Positions 1,480-54,673 of a stretch of 64,000 nucleotides of DNA are shown here, piece after piece. Where the stretch lies: assembly GCF_018977255.1 (NCBI RefSeq), contig NW_024704742.1, positions 2,606,001 to 2,670,000 on the forward strand, in the 5' to 3' direction. Source of the stretch: Callorhinchus milii (Eukaryota). Below the pieces are notes generated by a model. The model made no database searches. It saw nothing but the letters and a program-made list of their open reading frames with translations, and was not told the DNA's origin. The position numbers and the translations under genes are program-made. Position 1 is the first letter of the stretch. Each line of letters begins with the position of its first letter.

Positions 1480-1720
1480 ATAAAACCAAGACCTCGTCCA
1501 TCTGTTTTGTTCAGGGGGACGTTAAAGATCTTATAGCACTGTTCAAAAAGAGTTGCTCCTGGTGTCCTGACCAACTATCCCCCAGATATAATTGATCACT
1601 CAATGGCTGTCTGTGGGTCATTGCCGTGTGCAAATAGGCTGCTGCAAATTCACCTACAAGTACACTGTCACTACACTTTGCAGTGGCATCCCTATGAAGC
1701 ACTTTGAGATGTCCTCCTGA
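1480..1720 (+). mobile_element. Deu-domain SINE 3' fragment
   Basis: ggacgttaaagatc...ggctgtctgtgggtcattgccgtgtgcaaataggctgctgc...gaagcactttgagat, matching the other SINE bodies in the window. Confidence 0.55.
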
Positions 1721-1749
1721 TGTTCAGCTGTTTTTATCTTGTGCTGAAC

Positions 1750-2045
1750 AGTAGACCCGGAGGATACGGCCTGCGATTGACAGAGGTGAGTAAAGTCAGA
1801 ACAAATCTGTGGAAACACTCCTTCAGTGAGCTGATGGACCAGGCTCCCTGGGGAGACGGTGGAAGCAGAACATGTTATTTGTTTCAAAAGCAAATGAGAT
1901 AGATTCCTGCTAGAAAATAATATGTCGGGATAGTGTGTATAGTTTGGGACACGACCTGTCAAGCGACCACCAGGATGGTGGAAGGCGAACTAAATGGACC
2001 TTGGTCTTCTCGCGCCAGCAAATTCTTATGTTCTTGTGGTCTTAT
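1750..2045 (+). mobile_element. CR1-like LINE 3' end fragment
   Basis: atggaccttggtcttctc...ttcttatgttcttg tail, typical of CR1 3' ends. Confidence 0.5.
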
Positions 2046-4045: not shown

Positions 4046-4140
4046 AGGAGCACTGCATTGTCAGAGGTGCCATTCTTCGGATAAGATGTTAAACCGACGA
4101 CTCATCTGCCTATTTGGAAGGACATTAAAAGGTCCCATGG
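4046..4140 (+). mobile_element. Deu-domain SINE core fragment
   Basis: gcactgcattgtcagaggtgccattcttcggataagatgttaaaccga...atctgcc, resembling the DeuSINE central domain. Confidence 0.6.
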
Positions 4141-4246
4141 TGATCAGATTCAAATCCTTTTGAGAATCCTGCAATTTATATTCCACTGAGATGCCAAAAA
4201 ACAATGTGTATGAGACATCATTCGCCTGTGTGCATGCCATCATTCT

Positions 4247-4547
4247 GGTGTCCTGGAGCTCAGTGGTTAGAGCTCTCGCCTCGCAAGCGAGAGGACCTGG
4301 GTTTGATTCCCGGCAGGGCGAAATGTTCGGCAAGTTTCCTTACTCCACACGCCTCTGTTTACCCAGCAGCAAGTAGGAAACCTGTTCATAGTCGATTGGC
4401 GGATCACTTTTCCGGGAATAATAATTCTTTCAAAAAAATAACAATTGGTTCATTCAATCTACGCGTGTTTGTGGGGATGCTGCTGCGCTGTGCAGATGTC
4501 TTCTCGATGTGGAAGGCCCTTTATTAAGTGCAGGGTTTAGGATTATT
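4247..4547 (+). mobile_element. tRNA(Ala-like)-headed SINE, long variant
   Basis: A box agctcagtggttagag, anticodon arm ctcgcctcgcaagcgag, B box gggtttgattcc, then the body shared with other copies. Confidence 0.85.
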
Positions 4548-5840
4548 TGCATCGTACGAGCGCACCAACCTCACAAGTAGCACAGATCTGATTTGCCTAT
4601 CAGTTCGAAATACCTACTGGGGCTCTCAGCAGGGGAATTTGTCCGACAGAATCCTGGTGAAGTAGAAGCCAGCGTGAACAGGCAGTTAAACAAATCTGCG
4701 CAACGTTTTCACCAATCATTTTTCATGCTGTGTATAACAGAATTAAATTGGATATCAACAATTGGCTTTGGTTGGATTTATATTTGATCTGTGACTGCAG
4801 CTCATTAGATGTCGCCAGTCTCCTTCCTGTTTGAGTGCGTGTACATACTGCATCCATCAATGCAGTTTAAGTCATTCTTCTGCCGCTGCCCAAGGATTTG
4901 CACATGACAGGACTGAAAATTAAGTCTTGGCTTTTGAAGTGTTTCCACCAGAAGAGAGTAATTAGACAGTATTTTTAATTCAGTACTTTTCTCTTGGAGA
5001 AATTGAGCAATCAGTAAATCATGTTGACAAACTATCAACGAAACTGTTCCTTGTTTCCCTGATCTATTTCAATATTATTTCAAACATTAGTGCGCGAAAA
5101 TGCTGCTTCGTTTTAAAAAAAAATGAGCACTATTGCTTCAGGAAGAAGGTCCTGGAATTATTCCTCTGTTTCCATTGCCAATGCTGCAATTATACTGCAG
5201 AACAATAATAATCATAATAATCCTAACGTTTGCTTAGTGCTTCGCAGTGTAGACTGTAAAGTGCAGTGGCCGTGTGTCCCACAAACAGCCATGGAGTAAG
5301 CAGCCAATTTTATCCAGGAGATTGTTGGGCAGGACACCAAGAGGAACTCCCTTCCCTGTTCAAATACTGCAATGGACTCTTTATTGCGCACCTTTGGGAA
5401 AGAGATGACCTTGGTTTAACATCTTATCCAAAGGATAGAACCTCTTACAATCCCCCACCCCCAAAGCACTGCAGCTAAGACCATATAAATACCAAGCCTC
5501 AAGTCAACAACGACAACAATTTGCCTTTACATAATGTCCTTCACGAGGGGTTTAATGTCTTGGGGCAGTTGGGTAGAAGGTCCTTAAATGCTTCAGCAGT
5601 AGTTTAGCCGCTCTCACTGAGATGGAAACCACCCCTTTCTATACCAGGATACCAGGCTGCATTAATGGCATTAAAACCAGCATTGGTATTCAGGAAGGAT
5701 TCGATCAAGTGGACCAAAGTGGGGCTTTCTTTTTTTCAACCATGTGAACTTGTCGTCTGATGTCCATGCTACAAATGTACGGTTTTCATAGAATAAACGT
5801 GATTAATTATCATAAACTGTGAAAGCGATGGGCGGGGTAA

Positions 5841-6015
5841 CGTTTTATGGGGTCAAGATCGTGGGGTGTGATATTATCACTGGTGATAATTATCACATCA
5901 ACCAAAAGCGCGTCATCAATTAAGCGTCAGTAATTATCACTGACCTCGCTGATACTGCGCGACGGTGAAAAAATCACTGGTGATGGTATCAGTGGTGAAA
6001 GTATCCCATGTAACG
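5841..6015. mobile_element. Putative MITE / DNA-transposon relic with internal palindromes
   Basis: Imperfect terminal inverted repeats cgttttatggggt ... atcccatgtaacg; multiple GTGATA/TATCAC palindromes; related sequence at ~28690-28740. Confidence 0.4.
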
Positions 6016-6057
6016 ATTTGTACCTCTGTGATTGGCATTTGCCTCCCAAGTGTAATT

Positions 6058-6250
6058 GTGTTTTATTATTATATTATTATGTTCTTATTATATTATTTAT
6101 TTTATTATATCATATAATTATTATTATGTATTATCATTATATATTATTATATTATTATATTTTTATTATATTATACGTTATGTATTTTATTATGTCAAAT
6201 AATTATTATTATATATTATTATATTATATTGTTATTATTGTTATATTATA
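6058..6250. repeat. AT-rich (TAT/TTA)n low-complexity tract
   Basis: Degenerate tattattat array. Confidence 0.9.
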
Positions 6251-6763
6251 TCGTTTGTGTCGTGCTGTCTGAGGTGACATTCTCATGCGTTAAATCTGGA
6301 AACTGCCTCCAGTTCACTAATAATCCAAGCTTTCACATCACTGAAAATAATTGCACATTGCAAGTTTGTGGTTATATCAGTAAACACCTTCATCCTATGA
6401 CCGTTAAGGGCTGTATTTCCATTAAATGATCATATTGACTCCTTCATTTTTTTTAACACAAAACACGCGGATCCACCCCACTTTAGAGCCTACCCTGTGA
6501 AGCCTCTTCGGACGTCCTTCCGAACTGAAAGGCGCTGTACAAATGCAAATTAGTATTGTATCAAATGCGAGGAGAATTACTGTTAACAAGAGTTTTCCGC
6601 TTCTTTTACTCAAGCATAATAATTCTTTATAGTGTTTGACGTTGGCCGTGCTGACGCTCATTCAGTTTTTTTCTCCTTCCCGGTTTTCCTCTTACGGGCA
6701 AAATGAGACCTGAGATCAAACAGTGGTTGACTCACTTCTGTCATTCCTTCCAATTTTTTCCAG

Positions 6764-6930
6764 GTGAAAGGCGGACACTATGCTTTTGTTTGGGATGTGG
6801 CGGTGCTGGAATATGTGGCACTAAACAGTCCTGACTGCTCGTTTTTCACGATTGGCAACACTCTGGCAGACAGAGGATACGGGATTGCTCTCCAACACGG
6901 AAGCCCATACAGAGACATATTCACTCAAAG
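6764..6930 (+). CDS. GRID2: GRID2 internal coding exon (S2 ligand-binding segment)
   Basis: Polypyrimidine acceptor ttttttccag|GTG and donor CAAAG|gtagga. 167 nt translating [55 protein letters not shown](R), matching the GluD2 S2 segment ([20 protein letters not shown]). Ends in phase 2, compatible with the next exon. Confidence 0.96.
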
Positions 6931-7181
6931 GTAGGATTGCGGAGTTTTGCACTGTGCCTCGTGCTGTATGTTCACTCCAGGCTAAAACGACCGCTAGAAC
7001 TGCTGGAACGGAGAAGACGTGATAAGGCGCTGTATCAAATGTAATTATTATTGTATTGATTGTTACATGAGGGCCCAACCTCGATCTTATCCCTCGTCTC
7101 ATCTTGCGACACTTTCCCCATATCCTTCAATGTTCTCCCGCAGCCGTGTGTTCAGTTATTTCTTGTATGTGCGCTTGGCGG

Positions 7182-7245
7182 TATAACAGGCACCACAAGG
7201 GAGTCTTCACTTGTCACTTGTAGTTCTGAGATGTTAAACTGAGGT
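7182..7245 (+). repeat. Inverted repeat, left arm (pairs with 8181-8244)
   Basis: 61 of 64 positions identical to the reverse complement of 8181-8244. Confidence 0.9.
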
Positions 7246-7270
7246 CCCTCCGCTAAGTGGGTGTGCACAT

Positions 7271-7601
7271 GTGGAGTCCTGTAGCTCAGTGGTTAGAGCA
7301 CTCGCCTTCCAAGCGAGACACCTGGGTTCAGTTCCAGGCAGAGGGCGAAACCTTGAGCAAGTTTTCTTACTCCACACACCTAATAATAATCCCTCCAAAA
7401 CAATAATAAATTGGTCATTTTCAATCCGCGGCTGTTCATGGGGACACTGCTGTGCGCAATTGGCTGCTGCGTTTCGCCCACAAATATATAGTCAATTCAC
7501 TTTACAGCCTATTCTGTGAAGGGCTTTGAGACGTCGAGAAGACGCAAAAAGCGCTTTATCAAATGCAAGGATTATTATTATTATTATCATTATTATTATT
7601 A
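7271..7601 (+). mobile_element. tRNA-headed SINE, short variant, full length
   Basis: gtggagtcctgtagctcagtggttagagc head, body, and aaatgcaaggattattattatt tail. Confidence 0.9.
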
Positions 7602-7609
7602 TAGTTTGC

Positions 7610-7890
7610 TCCCCAACAACAGACTGTGGCAGAGAATTCCACGCTCTCACCATTATCTGGGTGACAAAGTTCCTCCTAATCTCTGTTCCGAACCTCCCAG
7701 TTATGATTTTAAATTATGCTCTCTCGTTCTACGCCCCTGACTACTATCCCTATCTAAGCCTCTGGTCATCTTACATAACTCTACCTATCATATCCCCTCT
7801 TAGCCTTCTGAGCTCCAAACAAAATAGCCCCAGTCGATCTAGCCTATCCATATAAATGGATTTGCTCATTCCAGGCAACATCTTGGTGAA
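7610..7890 (-). mobile_element. CR1-like LINE 3' fragment
   Basis: gcagagaattccacgctctcaccatt...tcccctcttagccttctgagctccaa...ccaggcaacatcttggtgaa, typical reverse-strand CR1 ORF2 end. Confidence 0.6.
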
Positions 7891-19990: not shown

Positions 19991-21265
19991 GAAACGCATC
20001 CTAAACCATACCCTTTTGTTTCTCATCTTCACCACTTTCCTTTCATCACCTGGGGATTGATTCCTATTGAAACCAGAAGCAATGGACCAGAAACTGGTCT
20101 GATATGCAAACAAATTTACAATAAAACAGTGTGATCTCTTTTATATAGATATTTTTTTTAAAAAGTGGAGGAAAAGTGATTTTTATGTGTTTTTCAGAAG
20201 TGATTCATAACACATACCACAAGTACAACCGTCGTCAAATTAGAAATGATTGAATTAACAAAGATATCCAGTAAATAAGTGGACTGTATAAGCACATGAA
20301 AATAATGACTGTAATGTGTTAATGGTTGGGCCGGAAGCCAAACTCACAGCTGCCATTGCACATTTACTTGCTTGTGGCTTAACCCTGATTTTTCTTTTGC
20401 TGAGTTAAGACAGTATTCTGTAAGAGAATCTGCGTTATTGACCGGCCTTGCTGTCTGCATTGATAAACAATGCAAACTTCATCATCAGGGAGAATTAACA
20501 CATCACCATAATTTAGCCTTGATTTCTGGCTGAGTCCCCGAAGCATGCAAGAACCGCCAGGTCTTTTTTTCTGTGTGCAATGTCCTGCAGCGCACAACAA
20601 CAACAACAGCAACAACTTGTATTTGTATGGTGCCCTTCATGCGGGATAGCACACACGTTCTCTCCAGTCCAGAGAGATGCGTGTGAGTAAATGGAGCAAG
20701 TAATAAGCACCGGGACATTGGTTCTTCAAAGAGACAAGGGAAAAATAAAAAAAAAGGTATCAAATGGGCTTCAAAGCCATTGACTCAAATCAGAATGGGT
20801 TGTTATTTATGACTGTGTGTATGAGGGTTTCCTTCTGCAGTACTGTCTGTTTCATTTTGCGATCACCGAGTGCAAAATGGCTCATTGGCTGCACGTTGAT
20901 GTGTAGAAGCTTCAAAACCACGTTTGAAAGGCAACCGTGTAACATTGTCAGCGACTAGAGTTTGGTTTCATGTTCAACTTTCCCCTCCTTTCCTGAAGGC
21001 GTCTTCCCTCCTTTCTTCCTTCTACTTGAGGTATATTTTCATGGGCACCCAAGTGGCTGCTATTTATTATTTATATTTATTATCTAGTCAATCTGTGCTC
21101 CCCCTGACCATCACACACACACTGGATAGGGAGCAAGAGTTAGAATTGTGGCTGATTTGTCTGTCTTTGAATCCCTCTTTAAAATCTTGCTCGTCAAGGT
21201 TATGGTCTTATGGTCATCTCAGGGATGGTCACTACACTGTCCTGTAGGCCTGCATTGTTCCCAGT

Positions 21266-21690
21266 TATAATAATAACAATAATTCTTGCATTTGATGTGG
21301 CGCCTTATCACGTCTTTGAAACGTCTCAAAGCGCTTCACAGAATATACGGTAAAAGTGATTTGATTATAATAATAATAATAATCCTTGCATTTGATATAG
21401 CGCTTTTCACGTCGGGAGGACGTCCCAAAGCGCTTCACAGAACACACTGTAAAGTGAATTGACTGTATATTTGTGGGCGAACGCGGCAGCCAATTGCGCA
21501 CAGCAATGTCCCACAAACAGTCATGTATTGTAAATGACCAATTTATTATTGTTTTTGGTTTTGGAGGAGTATTATTAGGCTCTGTGTGGAGTAAGGAAAC
21601 TTGCCCAAGGTTTCGCCCTCTGCCTGGAATTGAACTCAGGTCTCTCGCTTGCAAAGCGAGTGCTCTAACCACTGAGCTACAGGACTCCAC
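21266..21690 (-). mobile_element. tRNA-headed SINE, short variant, full length with an extra tandem tail
   Basis: Reverse-complement head at 21600-21690 (anticodon loop TGC); two aataat...ttgcatttgat tails at 21266-21362 and from 21365. Confidence 0.9.
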
Positions 21691-33901: not shown

Positions 33902-34142
33902 GATTCTGGAACTCCTGCAGAGCGGGGAGATCGACCTGCTCAAGCACAAGTGGTGGCCGAGGACCACCCAGTGTGACATCTACTCCTCGTACAAAGCACA
34001 GCAGAGGAGCAGCGCTCTGGATCTGGCCAGTTTCGCCGGCGTCTTCTGCATCCTGGCGGCCGGCATCATCCTGGCCTGCGTCATCGCCATTGTGGAGAAC
34101 TGGTGGAACAGACGGAGAGCTTCCCGGGTCCCCTCCAAAGAG
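33902..34142 (+). CDS. GRID2: GRID2 internal coding exon (end of S2, M4 helix, proximal C-terminal domain)
   Basis: Acceptor ccgtccag|G and donor AAAGAG|gtaaca. 241 nt; completes the Arg codon AG+G, then [80 protein letters not shown] (KHKWWP motif, M4 [12 protein letters not shown]). Confidence 0.97.
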
Positions 34143-38190: not shown

Positions 38191-40119
38191 AAAAATCACA
38201 GAAATGACCTTAGCATGCTGCGCTAAAACTGCGCTATATAATTAATTCTAATGTTTAAACTAAACACCACAAAACGCGTACCTTGTATAAACAAGACTAC
38301 TAAACAGAGTGTTAACTATATTTGTGTCACTTCTACAAGTCATTTGCAGCTTCGTTACGCATGAGCTATTCCAGTCTCCTTTGCTTGTGGAATGAACTGT
38401 ATTTAGCGACTTGTTATAAACGCATTGTCTATAACCGCTCAGTTGATAATTTAACCGATCCTATATTGCTTTGGGACCAGGGTTTGAATCCAGCCAGGAC
38501 TAATGGATAAAAGTCTTCTCTCTCTGCAGGATGTAAGGGCCCTATGTGAAATGAATTTAGAGAGAGTCAACCCACTTCCTAGGGGGCCTGCGCCCACAGC
38601 ACAAAACTGCCCAGAATTCAGCACTAAATTGGCAATTTCACTCAGAGAGGTCATAAGGATGGCTGAGGTGAGAAATAGAAATTTCACACGGGTGCAGTAA
38701 GGGGTTCGCTTTTGAGGTTGGGGCTGAAGCACAATGGCGATAGCAGGATTTTGAAAGGCATCGTCCCAACACCATGCCGCCTCTCCCCCACACCCTACGT
38801 GACACACACACACACACACACAACACACCCATTACCGGTCTAGGTCTAGTCTAAGCAGGACCAGCTCTCGCTCTCTCTCTCTCTCTCTCTCCCCTCCTTC
38901 CACCCGCCCCGCACACGTGAGTTTGCAGGGCTATGGGGTGCAGCGTATCGGTGGGGCAGAACGGAGTGAGTTTTATTCCGCAACTGGTTCCGTTACGCCT
39001 GACTAAGGTTCACTGAAAATCGAAATGCGTTACATGCCTCAACACTCTGATCCTTCGAAAAGCACGTGCCATAAATCTCACAAGCGACTTTACAGCTGCA
39101 TTGCCTGGAATCTGAATTAAGACGGTGCGGACTGCCGGGCTCTTAATTGTACATTGGATGATTTGGCAATGGGGGTGAGGGGTATGCAAGCTGAATTTGG
39201 ACCCAGCATCGGCTTGCAGGTAGCCACACGTGTTTCACGTTGAGCCAAGAGACGATCCCTGGAAGGAGGGTCATGTCGGAGCAGGGAGCTTGAAGTATGG
39301 TCGGCACAATACATGTCTGGTTGCTTGCAGGAGTTTTGGTTCCCAATTCCAAGACGGTATTTGTGATTCCAGCAAATACTGTATTTGGAACCCCGACAGT
39401 GATAGGCCTTGGCAAACTCCAATTTAGATTTGCTTCTGAAGGAAGAAGTCTAGGATCAGTGTTATGCCGCTTAGACACAAAACCCCCGAGATTGTCTTGC
39501 ACAACCGTATTTTTGTTCTAGATGTAGTGTACCCTAGTTTTTTTCCCCTGAAAATCTAGTGCATATTACACATGGTCCCCCATTACACCTTCATCCTCCC
39601 ACTGAAACTCCAGCCCAAATAATAATAATTAAGAATCCTTGCCTAAGACATTGCACCTCATCATGTCATCAAAACGCCTCAAAGCACTGCACAGGGTACA
39701 CTATAAAGTGTAGTGACTATTTTAAGCGAATGATAGTTCATGCACACATTGTTTAGGTCATTTTTTTCCTTTTTTGAAGAAAGACAAGCACTGTGTGTGG
39801 CACAACACGATATAAGGCACATTCAGATAAATATTGGCTGACAAATCTACATTTCAGCTCGCATTGTCAGTGCCCCCGTAAATGCAGGCCATGAATGTTG
39901 ATGCCAGTACGTACTGCGGTAAACCCAAAGTCACCTCAGCAGTAAGTGAACAGCCCTAATGAGACCGTTTAATTTTAGAGCTCAGAGAGGAAAGCAATTT
40001 TATCAAGCTCTTTAATTCCTGAAAATTCAGTTATGGTTTAAAAATTCCTAGATTGGCCCCTAGATATGCAGTTGTGAGCAGAAGGCTGAGTTTTAAAATA
40101 GAGATCTCATCAGAGACTA

Positions 40120-42600: not shown

Positions 42601-43023
42601 GATGACAAGGAGATCGACTTGGAGCACCTTCACAGACGGGCAAACAGCCTCCTCACAGACGACGATAGCCCTCACAAGCAGTTTTCCACCTCGTCCATCG
42701 ACCTGACTCCCTTGGACATCGACTCCTTGCCAACGAGGCAAACCCTGGAACAGATCAGTGACTTTAGAAACACTCATATCACCACCACAACCTTCATACC
42801 AGAGCAGATCCAGACTTTAAGCCGCAGCCTGTCTGCTAAAGCTGCCTCAGGCTTCACATTCGGAGGAATGCCCGAGCACCGAACTGGCCCCTTCAGAAGC
42901 AGGGCACCCAATGGTGGCTTTTTCAGAAGTCCCATCAAAACCATGTCCTCTGTCCCCTATCAGCCAACTCCATCTGCAGTGTACAGCCTGAACAATGACC
43001 CTGACCGGGGCACATCTATATGA
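42601..43023 (+). CDS. GRID2: GRID2 terminal coding exon (cytoplasmic tail with PDZ-binding motif)
   Basis: Long CT tract then ttcgaag|GAT, phase 0. Translates [41 protein letters not shown]...[10 protein letters not shown]. The DPDRGTSI end points to GluD2 rather than GluD1. Confidence 0.97.
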
Positions 43024-45315
43024 ATGTTATATTTTTCACCGGGACTCAGTTGGTGAGATGATAGAAATTATTGGTGGGACTAACCTGGACGTAACTTTTT
43101 TTAAAAAGAAAGTCAGGATCTTAGTTACAGCTTTCTCAGATATAATCGCAATAACTCCAGCCTGTTTATGGCCCAGTATTATGTTTATTTCCGCTGCATT
43201 CAAAATTCAGTGCTTTTATCGCTGGCAGTTACACGTGGTACTTCATTTCGGACCAAAAGGCGCAACCTGCTATTAAAAGTAAGAACATTCAGGCCACAAG
43301 TTCAAAGAATGCTACATTTTTATAGGATCACACTCATAACGAAGCCATCCGGGAACTTGTCAAAATATTTCAGGCATCATGTGGCAAAAACAAACTTAAA
43401 ATATGGTACATTTGGTCCCAGCTTAGACTTTGTTTTAAACAAAATTCCTCTGCAAGGTTGCATTACACGCAGATGTTTTCTAATGTACAGTTTAGGTTAA
43501 ATCCACGATGTCCTGGCTTACAAAGTGGAAATCATTTGCAACAGTTTCCTAAGGTGTTAATAGGAGAAAGTATGTTAGATATTGCCAGGTAAATGAATGT
43601 CAGATTTTTTCGGTGTTGTGGTTTTTGGTGCTGGAGGAAGTAAAATGCCAAAATGTCCTTCTGAAGTTGCAAAGTATTGAGTTCATTGCTGCTATGTAAT
43701 AGTACGTCTTGACAGTCAATGACAAGCATTAATTCTTTCGGCTAATAGTGGATAACCTTAACAAAAGCAACCCCCACCTTATACGGAATTGCAGTTCAGA
43801 AATCCAATGGTAGAATTGGGGATTGTTAGAGGGAATATTTTTTGAACAAAACATAGGGACGGAAAAGTTGATTACCGTTCAAGATTAACTGTTCGCGGGG
43901 GGGGGGGGGGGGGGAAATATGTGATGTCTCTAACTTTAAAAACGCAAACCTTTTCCAGACTCATATCTGCCTGGAATTTGAACTAATGAACGAGAAAATG
44001 GAGTTGGAAGTAGATTCTGTCTGTCTTAACAATGTGGCCTTAAATGTGTTACATGGGAATCGAATAGCAAACCAAACTGCAAAAGGTATGTTCCGACAGC
44101 CTTCTAGATCCTTGTTCCTGCTTGCTTTAACGATCATATTTGCTCAGTTAGAACAGAAAACAGTCACACTGCATGAGATGGGACAAGCTGTGTAGATAAT
44201 AACTCTTTGTTCTCAAAGAAGCCAGATATTCCTCGGTTTCGCTAAAAGATAATGTACTCCTCACATGCTATAGATTATGATTAACCAGTTGTCCATTACA
44301 ACAATCGGGTTCGAACATTAAACCGTTTTGCATCGGGATATGTAATGGCCGTATTTATGAATCAGTGTATATGGAGGTTAAGCGGTGTTGGATGAATCAT
44401 TTACACAGCTTTACGGAGTCTAGAGAGTGTAACTGTTTCATGCTGACGCTGGAAGCTATATATGTATTTTTGGAGCCTCTTTTTTTTAAGTTGCAGCTTT
44501 AAGCAGTTGGGTAGCTCGTCAAGTGGTAGTTAAATTGTGCTTTAAGTACGTTTCCAACAAGGTAAACTCCATTTTTCGTGCAGTGTTGCAAACTCTGGGG
44601 ACGTCAGCGCCTGAAGGGAGTGCCACTTTCACCACCAAACGTCTTTTAGAAACACTAACTGTGTCACACACCATGGCAAATGAGAAATTTGTGATGCGTT
44701 TCTTTTAACTTTAAAAAAACAATAATTAATAAGTGGTAGGTAGAAAGCAGCTATGTTTTCTGTGTTCGATTACAACTTTAGGTGTAACTTAACTAATGAT
44801 TAATTAACAAAAGGAGAAAAAAAAAAGGCTTACAGCTGTTTCCTCAGAATTTATCTTGTCCAGTGAGGGTGGGCAAACAACAAAGTATATATTTTGATGC
44901 TAATTCTTCTCTTTTACCTGTTCTGAGCAGCGTTCTGATAGTTATGTTACTGGTTTGTACAATACAATGTCTACAGTGTAAGACAAACCCATTTTTACCA
45001 CAGAGACCGTTTATAGTATGAATAATGCAAGTTAACGGAAGCATGCGCAACTTGCATAACCTTGTCACTCTCTCTATTTCATATCTGTTGTTATGAATTT
45101 TCATTTGGACACAGTATACAGGGACAAACCAGATTACAATAATTTACTGGGTTAGAAAAAGAACCATAGTTAATCATAACCAATATTTATAGGCCTATTT
45201 TGATGTCGGTGTTGCATATAAAGAACACTTTTTTGATGGGGAAGGGGGCCTCTGTTACAAGTGGCGAAGCTTTCTGTGTATCATTTGTCTAATAAAAATG
45301 TTTTTTTTTCATACC
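43024..45315 (+). other. GRID2: Probable GRID2 3'UTR
   Basis: Follows the stop codon, AT-rich, no recognisable SINE/LINE over ~2.3 kb, and ends at an AATAAA followed by T/GT-rich sequence. The 3' end is inferred. Confidence 0.6.
45291..45296 (+). terminator. Polyadenylation signal AATAAA (GRID2)
   Basis: tttgtctAATAAAaatg followed by T-rich and GT-rich downstream elements; repeats resume shortly after. Confidence 0.6.
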
Positions 45316-45527
45316 CGGCGTTTTTTTGTTCGTTTATTTCAAACAGAATCACAGCCCGACATACTCGACGGTGTTTCAATATCAACCAATAAGCACCTGT
45401 GCACATTCTAGGGGGGAATGGGAGCCCACAAGCCATCGTCTGCTCCACACGAGGAGGCTACCACCTTGATGCACCTTTGTAATGAAATAGGATGTATCTT
45501 ATTGTCAATCACATAAGGAGTCACAAG

Positions 45528-45559
<32 letters not shown>

Positions 45560-48500
45560 CCTTCCATTTGATTTAAAACCTAACCAAGATGTCTCAAAGC
45601 ACTTCACAAGATATATGGTAAAGTGGTATGACTGTTGTTTGAATGAAGATTGGTTTGGATGAAGAATTCTTCCTTCCAGTCCTCATCACAGCATCACCTT
45701 GCTTTTGAAACTAGTCCGGTGGTCCTGGCCTCAACCACCGTTGCTGGCAACCTCTTCCAGGCGTTAATTATTCTCTTGACTAAAGGGTCTAAAGTTTCTC
45801 TCGCCCTCCACTGCTGCTCTTCTTACGTTGCTAGAACCATGATTGAGCCCCCTGTGGAAAATAATGTATCAGCTACAAATGTGGATTATAACAACAATAA
45901 CAATTGCAATTATACAACGCCTTTCAACTCCGCTTTTCTTTTCTGCCAGAGTCACATGAACTGACTTTGGGGGTATAAAGATGGTCGTTTAGCAACGTTT
46001 GGGGAAGGAGAATCTGGAGGGAAGTTAGAGTCACTGTTGTACTGCCAAACTGTCCCGGAAGAAGGTAACAGATCACTCGTGTTGCTATGTTATTATAATA
46101 TGGAAGCGTTGCTATTATATTTGACTGTACTTTGACTTGAGGTTTTGTTGTGTGTGTTCGATGACATACATTCTTAGTAAAGAAGTCATTTGATTCGAAC
46201 CATTACAGCCACGGTTTGTCGCCTTGCACGCAATCCTTTCGTGGAAACCCCACTTAAGCCGAATGATACACCTGCCTTTTATTTCATGCCCTGAAACAGC
46301 GTTCTGCCTTCACAGGAAGAAAATGTTTACTAACACGGTTAACTGATGGTCACCTACACCTGCTCTCCACTTTAAAATGCTGTGAAGTGCTTTGAGATGT
46401 TTTTTTATGATGCGATAAAGAGCTATATCGCTCCCCAGTCCACCACCCAGTGCCTCCGCTCGACTGACACCGGCCTCGTGACTGTCCCTCAAAGCTACTG
46501 CTCCACCATTGGAGGTCGCGCATTCAGCCACTACGCCCCGAAACTCTGGAGGACTTTTTTCCCCCTCAATCCCTCCGCCTTTAAGTGAATTAATTGAGGA
46601 CGTTGCTGCAGTCTGAGCTGTTTTTTCTGAACGATACGCGGATAGTGCTATTCTACTCCAGAAATCAGTGAAATTAAACTCAATTGTTCCCTGTAGTTTA
46701 AATCACTCGAGTAGATTATTGAGCCTGCTTTCCTTTGCTGTTTGCTGTGCACACTCTGCCAACCTGCCCGATAAAATGTCGACTGCAAGCACTGAAGAGG
46801 AAAAATAAACAGAGGACCGAAACGTTATATAAAGCAAACAACAATCAGCTGTGAGCATGTTCGAGATGGTTACCAGGTGTATTTCGCGCACAGATATACA
46901 GTCAATTCACATTACAGTACATCCCGTGAAGCGCTATGAGATGTCTAGAAGACGTGATAAGGCGCTATATCAAATGCAAGGATTATTATTATTACTATTA
47001 TTGACAAGCTCCCGGGCTTTAGACTGCCAAACCAACCACAAGAATGAAGATGCAATTTCAAACCCCTTGAGTGTTTTGCAGCCTTGGAGCAAAACTCGCA
47101 GGCATCTGTTGTTCTGCTATTGCACGACAAGAAAAGCAATGACCGAAAAGATCTTTATGTAAGCGCAAATATTATAAATTCACATAGGAGTTAAGTGATT
47201 ATCCAGGTCCAACTTTGGACAGGGTAAATTAATGAGATGAAGCATCATTCTGGAATTGCACTAAGACCTTTCGTTTGGTTGAGATTCGTGAGACTGAGTG
47301 CGCAATCAATCCCACTGCATGTGTGGGGGGAAAAAAACAGCAGATACTGTAAAACCACAGCGCCGATGAGTGAAATAATAAATATTATCTGAAGAAAGTC
47401 CTTAGAGATTTGTGAAGTGCAGGCTCACACTATCTTGCCAGTTTAATCAAATTCATGGCGTTCTACTCCTCCATAGTATTGTCTGTCTATTGTATCTTCT
47501 TAAAAATAATGAGAATTTCTACGAGGTAGAGTGTGCCAGAGGACTCGAGAAGGAATTGCATAGCTAAATGATGAAGTAACTGATAGCCCGGGGTAGGAGA
47601 ATTACCCTTCTAGTTACTTTGGACCTCAATAGTCTTTCTCCTAAACATTCCTACGTTCCTAAGGTTAAAGCAAGCTCCGATGATTAAATGATTTGACTGG
47701 AGCAAAGAACCAAAGCGATACTCGTTGAATGGAGCAATCATCTTACATTGCATGGTTCAAAAAAAGGATATCGTGGAAAATTGTCGAAGCCATCCAGCCG
47801 GAATGATGCTTCAGTCGCGTTTGCCTTTCCCACGGCTGACATATTCTGGGTGGATGGTTTCCAAAAATGTTCCTGCAATGTCCATTATACTTTGTAGAGT
47901 TACAAAGGTTGTTACAGCACGGAAACAAGCCATTGAGCTCAACTAGTCAACGCCGATGTTTATACTCCACGTCTCCTGATCTGCTCTCTCACGCCCCTCC
48001 ATTAGGAGAGACGAAGAAAGAGAGTACAAATCGGAACGTGTAATTAAGCTCAATATGGCGTCGAGATTCTCGAGAATAGATACTGAAAGCGAACGTCACA
48101 GGCCAACAACGACGGATACCCTCGGAATCCGGTGCTATAGAGGAACGTTTAAAGAAGCTGGGATTCTTTTCAAAGCATTGAAGCAGAATATAAAATAATA
48201 ACCAAGCGGGCGATTCACATTCAATGGCAACTTAACCAGCTTTAAGCTTAAATTGGGACCGCACTCTCTCCCTTGCTCGCTTTGCTCAGCCTAACACTGA
48301 GTTACTGCTCCTTCCCTGATCCCTCTCTGGCCTTGCCCTCAGCCACTATGTCCCTGTGCCCTGGAGTTCCCTGCCTCTGACCTTCCATCTCGCCCCCTCT
48401 TCATCTGGCTTTAAATCCCCTCCTCAAAACCTACCTCTTCGACTGCGCCTCTCTTCACTTCCCCCTCCTCCTTCAGCATCCAGCCCTCACTGTACGGTTC

Positions 48501-48571
48501 TCTGAGATGGTACTCTACGTGAAGGGTAAATGCCAGTCGTAGTTGCTGCATTACTTCTTGCTGTACTTAAC

Positions 48572-48945
48572 ATATAATAATACTATTACTAATAATACTT
48601 GCATTTGACATAGCGCTTTTCACGTTTTCTAGACTGTCTCGAAGCGCTTCACGGAATACACCGTAAAGGGAATTAATTCTGTATTTGCGGGTGAAACGCG
48701 GCAGCCAATTGCGCACAGCAGTGATCCGCAAATAGGCGTGGATTGGGTGACTTTTTTGAGGGATTATTATCCCCGGAAAAGTGATCTGGCAATCGGCTAA
48801 CAACCGGGTTGCAACTTATTGCTAGGTAAACAGAGGCGTGTGGAGTAAGGAATTTTTTGCCCAACATTTCGCCCCCTGCCCGGGAATCGAACTCAGGTCC
48901 TCTTGCTTGCGAGAGCGAGTGTTCTAACCACTGAGCTACAGGACT
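48572..48945 (-). mobile_element. tRNA-headed SINE, long variant, full length
   Basis: Reverse-complement head ...ctaaccactgagctacaggact, internal block, and tail ttgcatttgacatagcgcttttcac. Confidence 0.9.
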
Positions 48946-50379
48946 ATAAAATAGTAAATAAAATATGAGCTATAAAATAGTAAATAGTCATATTTGTCCA
49001 TACATATATTCCATGTAGTTAAAGAAAAAGCAAGTCACCGGTAGTAAGTTTATGACAGTAATTCACTCTTATCGTTCCATTTATGCTCGTGAACTGCTGA
49101 AGCTTCCCTCGATTGAACTGTCCAATTAAATTACTACTTTGTAATGTTCTGCCAAACATCTGTTTCCCTATATGTATCATCAGATGCAGTCTCTGCCTGG
49201 AGACTTTTAAAATGTATAAATGCATGGATTGCCATCATCCTATGCAGATCCCAATGAGCAATGTCACCCTCCAGTGGCATTTGCTAAATATGTACCTTTG
49301 ATGCGTAAGGAAACAAATAAGTTTCGGTAATAATGTGCCATGTTATAACAAGGCAGCCTTGCAACTTTGGCAATAATGCACAAACAATGTTGTGAGATGA
49401 ATGTGCTGGATGGTTGCAAAATGCTCAGAGCCAAAGAGTATAATAATAATAATAATAATAAAATAATAATATAATAATAATGCCTTCAGCCACTGTGCCC
49501 CGAGGCTCTGAAACTCCCTTCCTCACTCCCTTCGTCTCGTTCCCTCCCTTCTCGTTTTCAGGTCTCTGCTGAAGACCTTTCTTTTCGACCGGGCTTTTTC
49601 CTTCGAATGGACTTCCCCCCCAATTCCTTTGCTGTGCCTAAAGTCTGTAAAGAAAAGGGCTTTCAACGTTGGTCCAACCGTTTCGAGTAGACCGTTCACA
49701 GGTTAAACGCACCCGCTTTTTGTTCCGCTAAAACTAGAATAATCAATAAGGATAGAAAAACTGTACGTGGCTTACAAATGGGCAGTTAAAGATTTTCTTT
49801 TCTCTTTGTTAAAAGCCCCATTTTTCCCGGCGACTGGAGTCGAGACAAAGTAAGTACTCTTGGTATCAATAGTGTTTTTTTTCCCACCTTTTCTCTTTTG
49901 CTCTATGCAGATTTCTTCAAACTCTTTGGAGAAAAAATAGAGAGAGCCACAGCCTTAGAGGTCCCGGACATTTACACGGGGGAAGCTGTACTTCTGGTCC
50001 GGAGAGAGAGAAACGTCAATGGACTTCAGGGAGCGTTGAGATACCCACTGTCGAAGGCACTGAAGCAGCAACCGCTCAACGGAAGGAACGTCAGCAGAAC
50101 ACCAGGAACTAGTGCGACAGGTCTGTGAGGGGAATAAAGTGAACAGGCGATACAAGACAGAATACGGCGCAGAATACAAAATGATATGACAAGCTCGTGT
50201 GAGGGGGATGGGGGGGTGGTGGGGGGGGAAGGAACCATAAGTGGTGAGGGGAACATCTCCTCGCGATACATGATAAAAGGAGGGATTTACAGAAAGGACG
50301 TTCAGGGATGTACGAAAGTCGAGAAGTAAAAGGATTGAAAAGGAAATCCAGAGTAACGCAGTTAGGAGGACACGTGTTC

Positions 50380-50597
50380 AACAACAGCAACGTTACATTT
50401 ATACAGCGCCTTTCACGTCGGGAAGACGTCCCAAGGCACCGGGTCGAAGAGGAGGGCCTTGAAGGTGGCGAGGGGAGGGGACGAGGCGGAGGGACTGCGG
50501 GATGGAGTTCCAGAGGGTGGGGGCAGAGGGGCGGAAGTCCCGCCCGCCAATGGTGGGGCAGGCGAGGCGGGGGACATGAAGCAGGCCGGGGCCCGCT
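50380..50597 (-). mobile_element. L2-like LINE 3' end
   Basis: Minus-strand GLLHVPRLACPTIGGRDFRPSAPTLWNSIPQSLRL with tail. Confidence 0.8.
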
Positions 50598-50765
50598 GTT
50601 GTTGTTGTTGTTGTCGTCATTGTCGTTGTTTTTGTCGTTGTCGTCATGGTTGTCGTCATTGTTTTTGCTGTTGTTGTCGTTGCCGTTGTCGTCGTCGTTG
50701 TAGTCTTTGTTGTCGTTGTCGTCGTCGTCGTTGTTGTTGTCGTTGTTGTTTTTGTTGTTGTTGTT
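50598..50765. repeat. (GTT/GTC)n trinucleotide array
   Basis: Direct inspection. Confidence 0.95.
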
Positions 50766-50799
50766 GAGCGCTTTTCCCAGCGACTTCTGTTATTTTTTT

Positions 50800-51152
50800 C
50801 CCCTCCCCCCCAGTGCCCCTCCCCCCCAGTGGCCCCCTCCCCCCAGTGCCCCCCCAGTGCCCCCCCACCCCAGTGGCCCCCCCCCCCCCCAGTGGCCCCC
50901 TCCCCCCCCAGTGGCCCCCTCCCCCCCCAGTGGCCCCCTCTCCCCCCCAGTGGCCCCCTCCCCCCCCCAGTGGCCCCCTCCCCCCCCAGTGGCCCCCTCC
51001 CCCCCCCAGTGGCCCCCTCCCCCCCCAGTGGCCCCCTCCCCCCCCCAGTGGCCCCCTCCCCCCCCCCAGTGGCCCCCTCCCCCCCCCAGTGGCCCCCTCC
51101 CCCCCCCAGTGGCCCCTCCCCAGTGCCCCCCCCCCCAGTGGCCCCTCCCCCA
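50800..51152. repeat. C-rich minisatellite, unit ~cagtggccccctcccccccc
   Basis: Tandem ~19-21-nt units with variable C-run length. Confidence 0.95.
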
Positions 51153-51202
51153 GTTGCTGTGCTGTCACAGTGATTGACAGTCGGGGGGAGGGGCCTCTCT
51201 CT

Positions 51203-51216
51203 GTTTCCATGGCAGC
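51203..51216. promoter_or_regulatory. RFX X-box-like element GTTTCCATGGCAGC
   Basis: One mismatch from the X-box GTTTCCATGGCAAC; ~1.25 kb upstream of a ciliary/flagellar gene start. Confidence 0.45.
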
Positions 51217-51261
51217 GAATACACACAGTGACCGCCACAGAGTGAGTAAAGTGTGTAAACC

Positions 51262-52131
51262 ACTGTGTGTGTGTGTGTGTGTGTAAACCACTGTGTGTGT
51301 GTGTGGTGTGGGGGTGGGGGGGGGGTGGGGGTGGGGGTGGGGGTGGGGGTGGGGGTGGTGTGGGGGTGGGGGTGGGGGTGGTGTGGGGGTGAGGGTGGGG
51401 GTGGGGGTGGGGGTGGTGCGGGGGTGAGGTGGGGGTGGTGTGGGGGTGGGGGTGGGGTTGGTGAGGGGGTGGTGTGATGGTGTGGGGGTGGGGGTTGGGG
51501 TGGGGGTGGTGTGGGTGTGGGGGTGGTGGTGTGGGGGTGGGGATGGTGTGGTGGTGTGGGGGTGGGGGTGGGGTGGTGAGGGGGTGGGGGTGGTGAGGGG
51601 TGGGGGTGGGGGTGGTGAGGGGTGGGGGTGGTGGTGTGGTGGTGTGGGGTGGTGTGGGGGTGGGGGTTGGGGTGGGGGTGGGGTGGTGAGGGGGTGGGGG
51701 TGGGGTGATGAGGGGGTGGGGGTGGGGTGGTGAGGGTGTGGTGGTGAGGGGGTTGGGGTGGGGGTGGGGGTGGTGTGGGGGTGGGGGTGGTGAGGGGGTG
51801 GGGGTGGTGAGGGGGTGGGGGTGGTGAGGGGTGGTGTGGTGGTGAGGGGGTGGGGGTGGTGAGGGGGTGGGGGTGGGGTGGTGAGGGGGTGGGGGTGGTG
51901 GTGTGGTGGTGTGGGGGTGGTGTGGGGGTGGGGGTTGGGGTGGGGGTGGGGGTGGTGAGGGGGTGGGGGTGGGGGTGATGAGGGGGTGGGGGTGGGGTGG
52001 TGAGGGTGTGGTGGTGAGGGGGTTGGGGTGGGGGTGGGGGTGGTGTGGGGGTGGGGGTGGTGAGGGGGTGGGGGTGGTGAGGGGGTGGGGGTGGTGAGGG
52101 GGTGGTGTGGTGGTGAGGGGGTGGTGTGGGG
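51262..52131. repeat. G-rich (GGGGT/GGT/GGTGA)n array preceded by (GT)n
   Basis: About 850 nt of G-runs separated by T or TGA, with internal higher-order duplication. Confidence 0.95.
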
Positions 52132-52454
52132 TCCCTATAGATGTACCTTCGGCCGAAACGAACGGTGCGATCGGGATATTGAAACAGATCCCGTCGCCAA
52201 CGAGCACCGGGTCCGACCCCCACCCCGAGCGCTTCCCTCTCCCCCACCTCCGGCCAACGCTCAGACGTCCCCGGTGGACCCGACGCTGATCCGGTGCCGT
52301 CTGCGACCCCCTCCTTTCCGCGCCTGACCCGGTGACTGTTTTATCTTCGACTCTTGTCGGCAGGAAAGCGTTGCCCTCCCTCTCCCTCGGTGCCGCTGGC
52401 ATGCTCGCCCCTCGCCCGGAGACCCTCTAGTGTCGAGCCGACGGCTGCTCCAAG

Positions 52455-52566
52455 ATGTACGACCGAGCCCCCCGAGTGTCCAATTTCATCACCGACCCGA
52501 CGGGACCCGCCGTGGGTCCGGCCTCGTACAACGTCGCCCGCCGCAAGGTGGCGGATGAGACCCAGG
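52455..52566 (+). CDS. STPG2: STPG2-like exon 1 (start codon)
   Basis: caagATG context; MYDRAPRVSNFITDPTGPAVGPASYNVARRKVADETQ+G, donor CAGG|gtaaga. The MYDRAPR...VGP.SY.V N-terminus matches STPG2 as I recall it. Confidence 0.88.
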
Positions 52567-52828
52567 GTAAGAGGGAAGGCTGCCTCGGGCCGACTTTTCG
52601 GACGGTGATCGGCAGAGGATGGGGTGGGAGGAAGGCGATAAGAGCGGGGAGGTGGGTGGGGGTGGGGGTGAGGGGGTACGGGGGGGTGGGGGGGGGTCAC
52701 TCGGATTTTGTCTGTTGCAAGACTTCGGCGTCGCTAAAAAGCTTTATCGATCCACCGCTGTTGCTTTTCGGCGTCCAGTCTGCAGATGCCTCGGTTCAAA
52801 CTCACCCAACAAGTTCCTCTCTTTCCAG

Positions 52829-52938
52829 ATGGCTACGCACCGTTTTTATCCATGACGAGCCGAGATAACATCTTCAGGGTGTCGGGCACCTTGTTGAGTT
52901 CTCCGGGACCGGCGTATTACGACGGTTTTCAAATGCAG
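52829..52938 (+). CDS. STPG2: STPG2-like exon 2
   Basis: Acceptor ctctttccag|AT and donor ATGCAG|gtgtga. 110 nt, phase 1 to 0: (D)GYAPFLSMTSRDNIFRVSGTLLSSPGPAYYDGFQMQ, with APFLS and a PGP-x-x-Y repeat. Confidence 0.88.
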
Positions 52939-54211: not shown

Positions 54212-54376
54212 AACCGTGTTCCTGGAGGGCAGAGTCTGCAGAACAAGGCCCTTCGCTTCAAAGAAAGCAAAGAAGACAAACCTGGACCTGGGATCTACAT
54301 TCCGATCTCCGACTTTGACGAAATTCAGAAAAAGCCGAAAATGTGCAGATTGCTTAAGAAACCGAAGAGTATAGTG
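54212..54376 (+). CDS. STPG2: STPG2-like exon 3
   Basis: Acceptor gattttag|AAC and donor ATAGTG|gtgagc. 165 nt, phase 0/0: NRVPGGQSLQNKALRFKESKEDKPGPGIYIPISDFDEIQKKPKMCRLLKKPKSIV, with GG.SLQN..RF and a PGPG.Y repeat. Confidence 0.85.
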
Positions 54377-54523
54377 GTGAGCTCTTACCTCTGCATCTCT
54401 ATTATCTATAATATATGTAAAAAATATACACACCTGTATATAAAATATATATATTACTCATTTCGCTCATTCTGGACAGCTCTGAATCAGCACAATTACT
54501 TCTTCTTATCTTTCGCTCTCCAG

Positions 54524-54673
54524 ATACCAGATGCCCATATGCCCACTGCCCCATCGATCCCTTCAAGCAATCAGTCCTATGGCTATGAAGAAACCAAAGT
54601 AGGAATTCTCTGCAGGAAACCACCCCCTGCCCGAGACCTGACATTGGGTCCAGCGTTTTATTATCCACAGTTT
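54524..54673 (+). CDS. STPG2: STPG2-like exon 4 (the gene continues; later exons not found in this window)
   Basis: Acceptor cgctctccag|ATA and donor CAGTTT|gtaagt. 150 nt: IPDAHMPTAPSIPSSNQSYGYEETKVGILCRKPPPARDLTLGPAFYYPQF, matching the STPG2 PSIPS...SYGY...PP..D.TLGPA.Y.PQF pattern. Confidence 0.9.

What the first reader, a model, noticed from the sequence alone, without database searches (positions are those of the whole stretch)
45297..52455. GRID2 directly followed by STPG2 in tandem: likely inversion breakpoint relative to the human gene order
Seen: the GRID2 poly(A) signal lies only ~7 kb from an STPG2 start codon on the same strand, and I found no ATOH1-like bHLH ORF between them. Recalled: on human 4q22 the order is GRID2(+), ATOH1, SMARCAD1, HPGDS, PDLIM5, BMPR1B, UNC5C, ..., STPG2(-), RAP1GDS1(+), with megabases between GRID2 and STPG2. 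Inference: one inversion of the ATOH1-to-STPG2 block gives exactly GRID2(+) then STPG2(+). The interval would then be a synteny breakpoint, or the ancestral gnathostome order, that separates GRID2 from ATOH1. It also contains long, unstable G-rich and C-rich arrays.
Basis: partly seen in the sequence, partly recalled or inferred. Interest (0 to 1): 0.7.

Follow-up and report, generated by a model that had tools for sequence, protein, structure and literature searches.

The report
Elephant-shark double-inversion junction beside GRID2
In the elephant shark the end of the brain gene GRID2 sits 7 kb from the start of the sperm-tail gene STPG2, most likely because two neighbouring chromosome blocks were flipped in this lineage: an ordinary kind of rearrangement, notable only for parting GRID2 from its usual neighbour ATOH1.

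Summary
Observation confirmed. GRID2's last exons and STPG2's first four exons match named Callorhinchus milii proteins exactly. The AATAAA at 45,291 lies 7,159 nt before the STPG2 ATG, RNA contigs stop just before it, and no bHLH gene intervenes.

In a published elephant-shark gene numbering the STPG2-to-ATOH1 block is reversed against anole, dog and gar. But ATOH1 (id 42) does not abut RAP1GDS1 (id 66); 23 ids lie between. The next block, RAP1GDS1 to FBXO10, is reversed too. So this is one of three junctions from two side-by-side inversions, not one.

The order is derived, not ancestral. Zebrafish keeps GRID2-ATOH1; gar, chicken and dog numberings agree; 0 of 12 sharks and rays number the two genes adjacently.

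In-place flips also resemble scaffolding errors. There is no N in the interval and the 2014 annotation numbers the genes consecutively, but no read spanning the arrays was seen (artefact about 15%). Several gene names rest on recalled Ensembl ids. Not found in 10 literature searches, and the scan's index showed no note of it on other DNA. Ordinary in kind; modest interest.

The parts
6764..6930 (+). GRID2 coding exon (third from last in the 1,007-aa isoform)
   Evidence: exact match to C. milii delta-2 proteins
33902..34142 (+). GRID2 coding exon with the last membrane helix
38530..38667 (+). GRID2 alternative 46-codon exon in the cytoplasmic tail, present only in model XP_007900736.1 among the 10 isoforms compared
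42601..43023 (+). GRID2 last coding exon, ending GTSI-stop
43024..45310 (+). GRID2 3' UTR (end approximate); a contig of related organism B covers it with 134 other letters and 45 gaps in about 2,285
   Evidence: RNA-guessed contigs of X5 and X6 cover 43,024-45,276; X13 record 9 covers 43,024-45,308
45291..45296 (+). AATAAA poly(A) signal of GRID2
   Evidence: RNA contigs end 15-55 nt before it
45297..50799 (.). Intergenic interval that must hold the GRID2|STPG2 junction; exact breakpoint not located; about 15% dispersed-repeat fragments by window self-hits (measured over 45,297-52,454)
   Evidence: tiled by single-copy-depth DNA contigs of X1 up to 50,204 but not bridged
50597..50766 (.). (TGT)n simple repeat
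50800..51151 (.). C-rich ~20-bp minisatellite; 9 of the window's 19 minus-strand G-quadruplex motif matches
51203..51216 (.). X-box-like palindrome GTTTCCATGGCAGC, candidate RFX site of the STPG2 promoter (consensus recalled); the only site in the window within 1 mismatch
   Evidence: function inferred
51200..51241 (+). Candidate untranslated first exon of STPG2 ending at a GTGAGT donor (51,242); start not defined, not shown by RNA
   Evidence: inference
51308..52132 (.). G-rich (GTGGGG)n array; 16 of the window's 28 plus-strand G-quadruplex motif matches; would lie in the untranslated first intron of STPG2
52364..52566 (+). STPG2 first coding exon: candidate acceptor ending at 52,363, short upstream ORF 52,401-52,430, ATG at 52,455
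52829..52938 (+). STPG2 coding exon 2
54212..54376 (+). STPG2 coding exon 3
54524..54673 (+). STPG2 coding exon 4; later exons were not found in the window and lie beyond its end

Best explanation
The 7-kb interval is the first of three junctions left by two side-by-side inversions in the elephant-shark (possibly chimaera-wide) lineage. Starting order, inferred: G (..SNCA, MMRN1, CCSER1, GRID2) - B (ATOH1, SMARCAD1, HPGDS, OPN4x, PDLIM5, BMPR1B, UNC5C, STPG2) - R (RAP1GDS1, TSPAN5, METAP1 .. PAX5, ZBTB5, FBXO10) - F (FRMPD1). Elephant shark: G, reversed B, reversed R, F, giving the new neighbours GRID2|STPG2, ATOH1|FBXO10 side and RAP1GDS1|FRMPD1. Two reversals are the minimum, and both possible routes break the B-R interval twice at gene-level resolution. 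The junction here fell between intact units: GRID2 ends at its own poly(A) site and STPG2 keeps its own promoter (X-box-like site, arrays). So the event was probably close to neutral, and ATOH1 kept its 3' enhancer side, which travels with block B. The DNA-level cause is not shown. Recombination or repair between abundant L2-type SINE/LINE copies is my guess (about 0.5); breakage at the G-quadruplex arrays is less likely (about 0.15). Shown: both genes, their strand and spacing. Read from id order as a proxy for position: the block orders. Inferred: direction of change, neutrality, mechanism.
For: (1) Gene identity; C. milii STPG2 groups with 6 elasmobranch STPG2s at 100/100 in a 24-row tree. 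(2) Published elephant-shark ids (PMC8302630 Supplementary Data 1, anole-elephant shark table; 39 rows among ids 20-79): 23/24 HERC6/HERC3, 25 FAM13A, 28 SNCA, 29 MMRN1, 30/31 CCSER1 or GRID2, 34 STPG2, 37 PDLIM5, 40 SMARCAD1, 42 ATOH1, 44 FBXO10, 46 ZBTB5, 49 PAX5, 63 METAP1, 65 TSPAN5, 66 RAP1GDS1, 67 FRMPD1 (names recalled from human protein ids). Within block B the rank correlation with anole (6 genes), dog (4) and gar (4) ids is -1.0 each, while ids 23-29 run parallel to anole and dog and ids 24-31 to chicken. (3) Gar ids run RAP1GDS1, PAX5, ZBTB5, FBXO10, FRMPD1, CCSER1/GRID2, SMARCAD1, PDLIM5, UNC5C, STPG2: R followed by F is old, and GRID2's neighbourhood faces SMARCAD1, not STPG2. (4) Anole and dog keep STPG2 next to RAP1GDS1 and FBXO10 next to FRMPD1. 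(5) Zebrafish order matches human (PMC9585957 Fig. 2B legend). (6) 6 of 12 elasmobranchs have 21-34 RefSeq numbers between the genes, isoform steps 1-2 where several isoforms are listed; 0 of 12 adjacent. (7) Scan notes place SMARCAD1 1.20 Mb and RAP1GDS1 2.71 Mb past the window (unchecked notes), in the same order as the ids. (8) The 2014 RefSeq annotation numbers STPG2 ..735, GRID2 ..736 and SMARCAD1 ..700. (9) No N in the interval; both genes are whole up to their outer signals.
Against: Two adjacent blocks each flipped in place is also what mis-oriented contigs look like; the blocks (about 1.2-1.5 Mb) match the published contig N50 of 1.6 Mb, and a scan note reports another flip beside a gap 1.75 Mb upstream. 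Ids are only a proxy for position. GRID2's own elephant-shark id was not identified (its recalled human id was absent from the cut table). RefSeq numbering is not strictly positional: 6 of 12 elasmobranchs and 3 of 3 bony vertebrates give gaps of 201-7,826. Catshark atoh1 (XM_038793060), converted with a recalled offset, falls about 280-310 numbers away, not in the GRID2-STPG2 gap, although two neighbouring catshark genes differ by 489 in the same paper. C. milii HERC3 (XM_007902532), with a recalled offset, falls between ..700 and ..735, so 735/736 may be consecutive only within a second numbering pass. Gar lacks the STPG2-RAP1GDS1 adjacency, so the B-R link in the starting order rests on amniotes. 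The published BAC library and long reads come from one male, so the two assemblies may not be independent animals.
Confidence: 0.72

Rival explanations
1. Assembly artefact: two neighbouring contigs were placed in the right order but the wrong orientation and the join was closed through repeats; the true order is GRID2-ATOH1 .. STPG2-RAP1GDS1 .. FBXO10-FRMPD1.
For: Turning both blocks back restores three adjacencies seen in amniotes at once. Block sizes resemble the published contig N50; that assembly used Hi-C scaffolding and long-read gap filling. 1.5 kb of low-complexity arrays lie in the interval. No bridging contig. A nearby flip beside a gap was noted earlier.
Against: No N between 45 and 53 kb. 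The repeats are at most about 0.8 kb each, short against long reads (knowledge). All three junctions fall between genes in a region of very long genes, as expected after selection but not from random contig ends (inference; only this junction was seen at sequence level). The 2014 annotation of the earlier 454 assembly numbers the two genes consecutively, which under the human-like order needs the genes between them to have been numbered in another pass.
Confidence: 0.15
2. Real in the sequenced animal but not fixed: a polymorphic or very recent rearrangement.
For: Both published assemblies may stem from one male; no second individual was shown to bridge the junction.
Against: X1 tiles 43,063-50,204 at single-copy depth with no listed loose end outside repeat positions (24 loose ends listed, 3,866 not shown, and X1 may be the source animal); two separate inversions argue for some age.
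Confidence: 0.06
3. The elephant-shark order is the ancestral gnathostome order, and GRID2-ATOH1 arose later.
For: The elephant shark genome is slow-evolving with few interchromosomal rearrangements (PMC3964593). Catshark atoh1 does not number inside the GRID2-STPG2 gap (recalled offset).
Against: It would need the same reversal in bony vertebrates and in elasmobranchs. The paralogous human region has GRID1, OPN4, LDB3, BMPR1A in the human-like order (recalled; the LDB3/PDLIM5 and BMPR1A/B paralogy is in PMC3528684).
Confidence: 0.04
4. One simple inversion of ATOH1..STPG2, leaving ATOH1 next to RAP1GDS1.
For: Block B is reversed exactly as predicted.
Against: 23 ids lie between ATOH1 and RAP1GDS1, 13 of them with anole orthologues, and TSPAN5 and METAP1 precede RAP1GDS1; 1.51 Mb separate the SMARCAD1 and RAP1GDS1 notes.
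Confidence: 0.03

Closest known systems
Lineage-specific synteny breaks in chondrichthyans (little skate genome, PMC10115646; passages read)
   Same: Intrachromosomal break between intact genes. That paper counts 1,801 breaks between cartilaginous and bony fishes, about 2 per million years, enriched near TAD boundaries.
   Different: Here the break is on the elephant-shark side and is one of three from two adjacent flips; no chromatin data were examined and no phenotype is implied.
Human 4q22-23 block CCSER1-GRID2-ATOH1-SMARCAD1, kept in zebrafish chromosome 8 (PMC9585957; passages), and the tetrapod HPGDS-OPN4x-PDLIM5 segment (PMC3528684; passages)
   Same: Same genes; order inside ATOH1..STPG2 and inside HERC3..GRID2 is kept.
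   Different: The GRID2-ATOH1 link is cut; STPG2 takes ATOH1's place; ATOH1 faces genes found on human 9p13 (names recalled).
Mis-oriented contigs in Hi-C scaffolds (general knowledge)
   Same: Neighbouring blocks flipped in place, sizes near the contig N50, low-complexity sequence near the join.
   Different: No N gap at this junction, intact genes on both sides, consecutive numbers in an annotation of the earlier assembly.

Membership tests
GRID2 (delta-2 ionotropic glutamate receptor) | Identity to named delta-2 proteins over the exons present | tested here: met
   exact C-terminal match to C. milii delta-2 models; 89-91% to shark and ray delta-2 over the last exon
GRID2 (delta-2 ionotropic glutamate receptor) | Closer to GRID2 than to GRID1 in a direct comparison | not tested
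   no GRID1 sequence was fetched; none of the 120 listed of 246 hits is named delta-1
STPG2 | SHIPPO/PG-rich repeats and orthology to vertebrate STPG2 | tested here: met
   PF07004 E 2.8e-21; sister to elasmobranch STPG2 at 100/100, invertebrate STPG2-like proteins on a separate branch
STPG2 | Exclusion of paralogues STPG1/3/4 and ODF3 in one tree | not tested
   no paralogue was in hand; all named hits among the 120 listed of 438 are STPG2, STPG2-like or unnamed
Evolutionary inversion breakpoint | Flanking blocks collinear with other species but in changed relative orientation | tested here: met
   id orders, rank correlation -1.0 in block B for three species; proxy for position, names partly recalled
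Evolutionary inversion breakpoint | Outgroups on both sides lack the adjacency (derived state) | tested here: met
   zebrafish, gar, chicken, anole, dog; 0 of 12 elasmobranchs adjacent, 6 of 12 informative; indirect
Evolutionary inversion breakpoint | Junction spanned by independent molecules | tested here: inconclusive
Evolutionary inversion breakpoint | Reciprocal junction sequence and breakpoint signature (inverted repeats, staggered duplication) | not testable with these tools
   no whole genome held
Single inversion of ATOH1..STPG2 | ATOH1 adjacent to RAP1GDS1 | tested here: not met
   ids 42 and 66; 1.51 Mb between the SMARCAD1 and RAP1GDS1 notes
Scaffolding mis-join | Gap of Ns or truncated genes at the junction | tested here: not met
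RFX (X-box) ciliary promoter | X-box at a mapped transcription start, bound by RFX | tested here: inconclusive
   motif present and unique in the window at 1 mismatch; start site and binding untested

The most novel reading that the evidence does not exclude
The GRID2-ATOH1 linkage, kept from zebrafish to human and probably in sharks, is held by ATOH1 enhancers inside GRID2 or CCSER1, and chimaeras are a natural knock-out: the double inversion cut ATOH1 off from those elements and put it beside the FBXO10-ZBTB5-PAX5 block, altering ATOH1 expression in cerebellar, lateral-line, electrosensory or gut lineages, with the B-R interval acting as a re-used fragile site.
Probability: 0.07. Interest if true: 0.65.

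Novelty: new member of a known kind. Interest (0 to 1): 0.3.

Why it matters
The elephant shark is used as a stand-in for the ancestral jawed-vertebrate gene order; at this locus it is most likely the derived one, so the locus should be polarised with sharks and rays. If real, it shows that ATOH1 can lose its GRID2 neighbour, which limits how much essential ATOH1 regulation lies on that side, and gives a clean case of breakpoint re-use. If an artefact, it flags about 2.7 Mb of mis-oriented sequence in a much-used genome. Either way one long-read check settles it.

Tried and rejected
No whole genome was held, so the far junctions could not be read. Run search: no RNA holder listed on record; X5 and X6 are guessed RNA. 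Low-depth X5 pieces (2.5-3.6) inside the interval may be read-through or DNA and were not used. Organism B has homologous unique pieces at 46,233-46,402, 47,655-47,846 and 48,960-49,431, but none links the two genes, so they say nothing on adjacency. Large RefSeq gaps were rejected as evidence of distance (Mobula birostris 2,221 vs M. hypostoma 30). A hidden gene in the interval: 0 of 11 ORFs with a Pfam hit, no Rfam match, no bHLH motif. Inverted unique duplications inside the interval: only one inverted SINE-like pair. The sigma-70 promoter scan does not apply to a vertebrate. Searches for C. milii or shark accession numbers of ATOH1, BMPR1B, PDLIM5 or UNC5C, which would test the order in the older assembly, found none usable (supplements of PMC11979771 and PMC5979292 unreadable; PMC3522658 has no synteny passage). 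Scan look-ups returned nothing; 32 and 37 returned only distant genes. Recalled human ids for GRID2, UNC5C and BMPR1B were absent from the cut table.
Full report
1. What is in the window. The exons match named Callorhinchus milii proteins letter for letter. GRID2 exons 6,764-6,930, 33,902-34,142 and 42,601-43,023 give the last 276 residues of the 1,007-aa delta-2 isoform; with exon 38,530-38,667 they give the last 322 residues of XP_007900736.1. STPG2 exons 52,455-52,566, 52,829-52,938, 54,212-54,376 and 54,524-54,673 give 179 residues from the start of XP_007900735.1; further exons were not found in the window. Both genes are on the + strand. The STPG2 protein has PG-rich repeats and is sister to six elasmobranch STPG2 proteins at 100/100 in a tree of 24 rows chosen from the proteins fetched. 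No STPG or GRID paralogue was in hand, so paralogues were not excluded in a tree. Which assembly the window comes from was not established.

2. The interval. AATAAA lies at 45,291-45,296, 7,159 nt before the STPG2 ATG. Four of 24 listed runs were laid on 43,024-50,590. In the two RNA-guessed runs, from two studies, the deep contigs stop at 45,276 and 45,236 and the next bin is empty, while DNA run X1 goes on: a weak hint that this is the poly(A) site. X1 tiles 43,063-50,204 in eight listed contigs of depth 3.8-11.2, broken at repeats; none bridges the interval. No bHLH motif occurs in the window, 0 of 11 intergenic ORFs submitted hit Pfam and Rfam finds nothing. About 15% of the interval is dispersed repeat by self-comparison. 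The arrays are (TGT)n 50,597-50,766, a C-rich minisatellite 50,800-51,151 and (GTGGGG)n 51,308-52,132. Between the last two is a short island with an X-box-like palindrome at 51,203, the only one of the window within one mismatch of the recalled consensus, and a GTGAGT donor at 51,242; an acceptor precedes 52,364. I infer that this is the STPG2 promoter and an untranslated first exon, so the G-rich array is intronic and the junction lies between about 45.3 and 50.8 kb. There is no N in the interval.

3. Gene order in the elephant shark. No genome was held, so order was read from proxies. Two unchecked scan notes place SMARCAD1 1.20 Mb and RAP1GDS1 2.71 Mb beyond the window; the second made me doubt a single inversion. 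The anole-elephant shark orthologue table of PMC8302630 (Supplementary Data 1, held cut) has 39 rows among ids 20-79. Bridging through anole to human protein ids (gene names recalled) gives: 23/24 HERC6/HERC3, 25 FAM13A, 28 SNCA, 29 MMRN1, 30 and 31 (between MMRN1 and SMARCAD1 in chicken, so CCSER1 or GRID2), 34 STPG2, 37 PDLIM5, 40 SMARCAD1, 42 ATOH1, 44 FBXO10, 46 ZBTB5, 49 PAX5, 63 METAP1, 65 TSPAN5, 66 RAP1GDS1, 67 FRMPD1. Ids 35, 36, 38 and 39 are taken as UNC5C, BMPR1B, OPN4x and HPGDS by position only; ids 32, 33, 41 and 43 have no row, and GRID2's own id is not fixed. Ids 34-42 run exactly opposite to anole (6 genes), dog (4) and gar (4), while ids 23-29 run parallel to anole and dog and 24-31 to chicken. 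But 23 ids separate ATOH1 from RAP1GDS1, 13 with anole orthologues, and TSPAN5 and METAP1 come before RAP1GDS1, so the following block R is reversed too.

4. Which state is old. Zebrafish keeps CCSER1-GRID2-ATOH1-SMARCAD1 as in human (PMC9585957). Gar ids run RAP1GDS1, PAX5, ZBTB5, FBXO10, FRMPD1, CCSER1/GRID2, SMARCAD1, PDLIM5, UNC5C, STPG2; anole and dog keep STPG2-RAP1GDS1 and FBXO10-FRMPD1. For sharks and rays only RefSeq numbers were available: between the nearest GRID2 and STPG2 numbers lie 27, 28, 34, 27, 21 and 30 others in six species, and 201-7,826 in the other six; none of 12 is adjacent. In Chiloscyllium punctatum and Hemiscyllium ocellatum the labels rule out isoforms of the two genes as filler. 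Large gaps are uninformative (two Mobula species give 30 and 2,221; three bony vertebrates 545-1,322). Against me: catshark atoh1, converted with a recalled offset, does not fall in the gap, though neighbours there can differ by 489. The simplest start is G-B-R-F and the elephant shark is G, -B, -R, F, with three junctions seen in none of the other species checked. Two reversals are needed, and both routes use the B-R interval twice. The B-R link itself rests on amniotes only.

5. Real or artefact. In-place flips of neighbouring blocks of 1.2-1.5 Mb are what mis-oriented contigs look like; the published long-read assembly has a contig N50 of 1.6 Mb and used Hi-C scaffolding and gap filling, its authors report no large-scale mis-assembly (74 of 76 BACs on one scaffold), and a scan note reports a flip beside a gap 1.75 Mb upstream. 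For a real junction: no N, both genes whole to their outer signals, all three junctions between genes, and consecutive 2014 numbers (STPG2 ..735, GRID2 ..736; SMARCAD1 ..700). That last point is weaker than it looks: HERC3, with a recalled offset, numbers between ..700 and ..735, which suggests two numbering passes, and the BAC library and long reads are from one male. I put the fixed double inversion at 0.72, artefact 0.15, unfixed 0.06, ancestral order 0.04, single inversion 0.03.

6. How it works. The break parted intact units: GRID2 ends at its own signal and STPG2 carries its own promoter. The classic mouse Atoh1 enhancer lies about 2.1 kb downstream of the gene and a second one about 62 kb from it (PMC9371730; that the second is also downstream is recalled), on the side that travels with block B. 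The event is therefore probably near neutral (inference). Its DNA-level cause cannot be read from one junction; recombination or repair between L2-type repeats, which make up over a fifth of the published genome, is my guess. The G-quadruplex-rich arrays (16 of 28 plus-strand and 9 of 19 minus-strand motif matches of the window) sit on the STPG2 side and are not shown to be unstable or causal.

7. Known or new. [quoted passage not shown] Ten searches (listings only unless named below) returned no paper describing this junction; the library lacks most subscription papers, and genome browsers already display the order. Seen: passages of PMC9585957 (plus one supplement row), PMC6002735 (plus section 5), PMC3528684, PMC3964593, PMC11979771, PMC3112091, PMC3522658, PMC10115646 and PMC9371730; one passage each of PMC6581738 and bioRxiv 10.1101/2022.10.09.511500; passages, supplement file 1 part 2, search hits and rows of cut file 4 of PMC8302630; nothing but the header of PMC5979292. 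Unseen supplements that may bear on the claim: the rest of PMC8302630 file 4 (elephant shark-human and -gar tables), and those of PMC11979771, PMC5979292 and PMC10115646.

8. Verdict. A real-looking, derived synteny junction of an ordinary kind, more complex than first read, with a live but minority chance of being a scaffolding error. Novelty: new member of a known kind. Interest 0.3.

Noticed in passing
window 38,530-38,667: A 46-codon alternative GRID2 exon in the cytoplasmic tail (RefSeq XP_007900736.1). Four ray and skate isoforms carry an unrelated 14-residue insert at the same junction.
   Followed up: partly
window 52,786-52,828: The UniRef model P0001 starts at an ATG inside STPG2 intron 1 and misses exon 1; XP_007900735.1 has the conserved MYDRAPR start. 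Probably an annotation error.
   Followed up: partly
window 54,377-54,523: STPG2 intron 3 is 147 nt, in frame and without a stop, so retention would insert 49 residues.
   Followed up: no
window 52,401-52,430: Nine-codon upstream ORF just before the STPG2 start; another ATG sits inside the X-box at 51,209.
   Followed up: no
window 18,204 and 27,468: Two isolated single-base Ns in GRID2 introns.
   Followed up: no
window 21,265-21,462: Two tandem copies of a 99-bp SINE-tail-like unit.
   Followed up: no
outside the window, published ids 20-70 (PMC8302630 Supplementary Data 1): The locus carries very low gene ids, so it may lie near the end of the first scaffold. Id 45, close to ATOH1, pairs with a human id recalled as CFLAR, probably a paralogue.
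   Followed up: no
spotted gar ids: In gar the CCSER1/GRID2 gene follows FRMPD1, HERC3/FAM13A and METAP1 number elsewhere, and STPG2 is far from RAP1GDS1: the same region was broken independently there.
   Followed up: partly
STPG2 tree: The C. milii branch (0.74) is longer than any elasmobranch path from the shared fork (0.39-0.65), against the species' slow average rate.
   Followed up: no
window 46,233-46,402, 47,655-47,846, 48,960-49,431: Unique intergenic pieces kept at 82-89% in related organism B; possible conserved non-coding elements.
   Followed up: no
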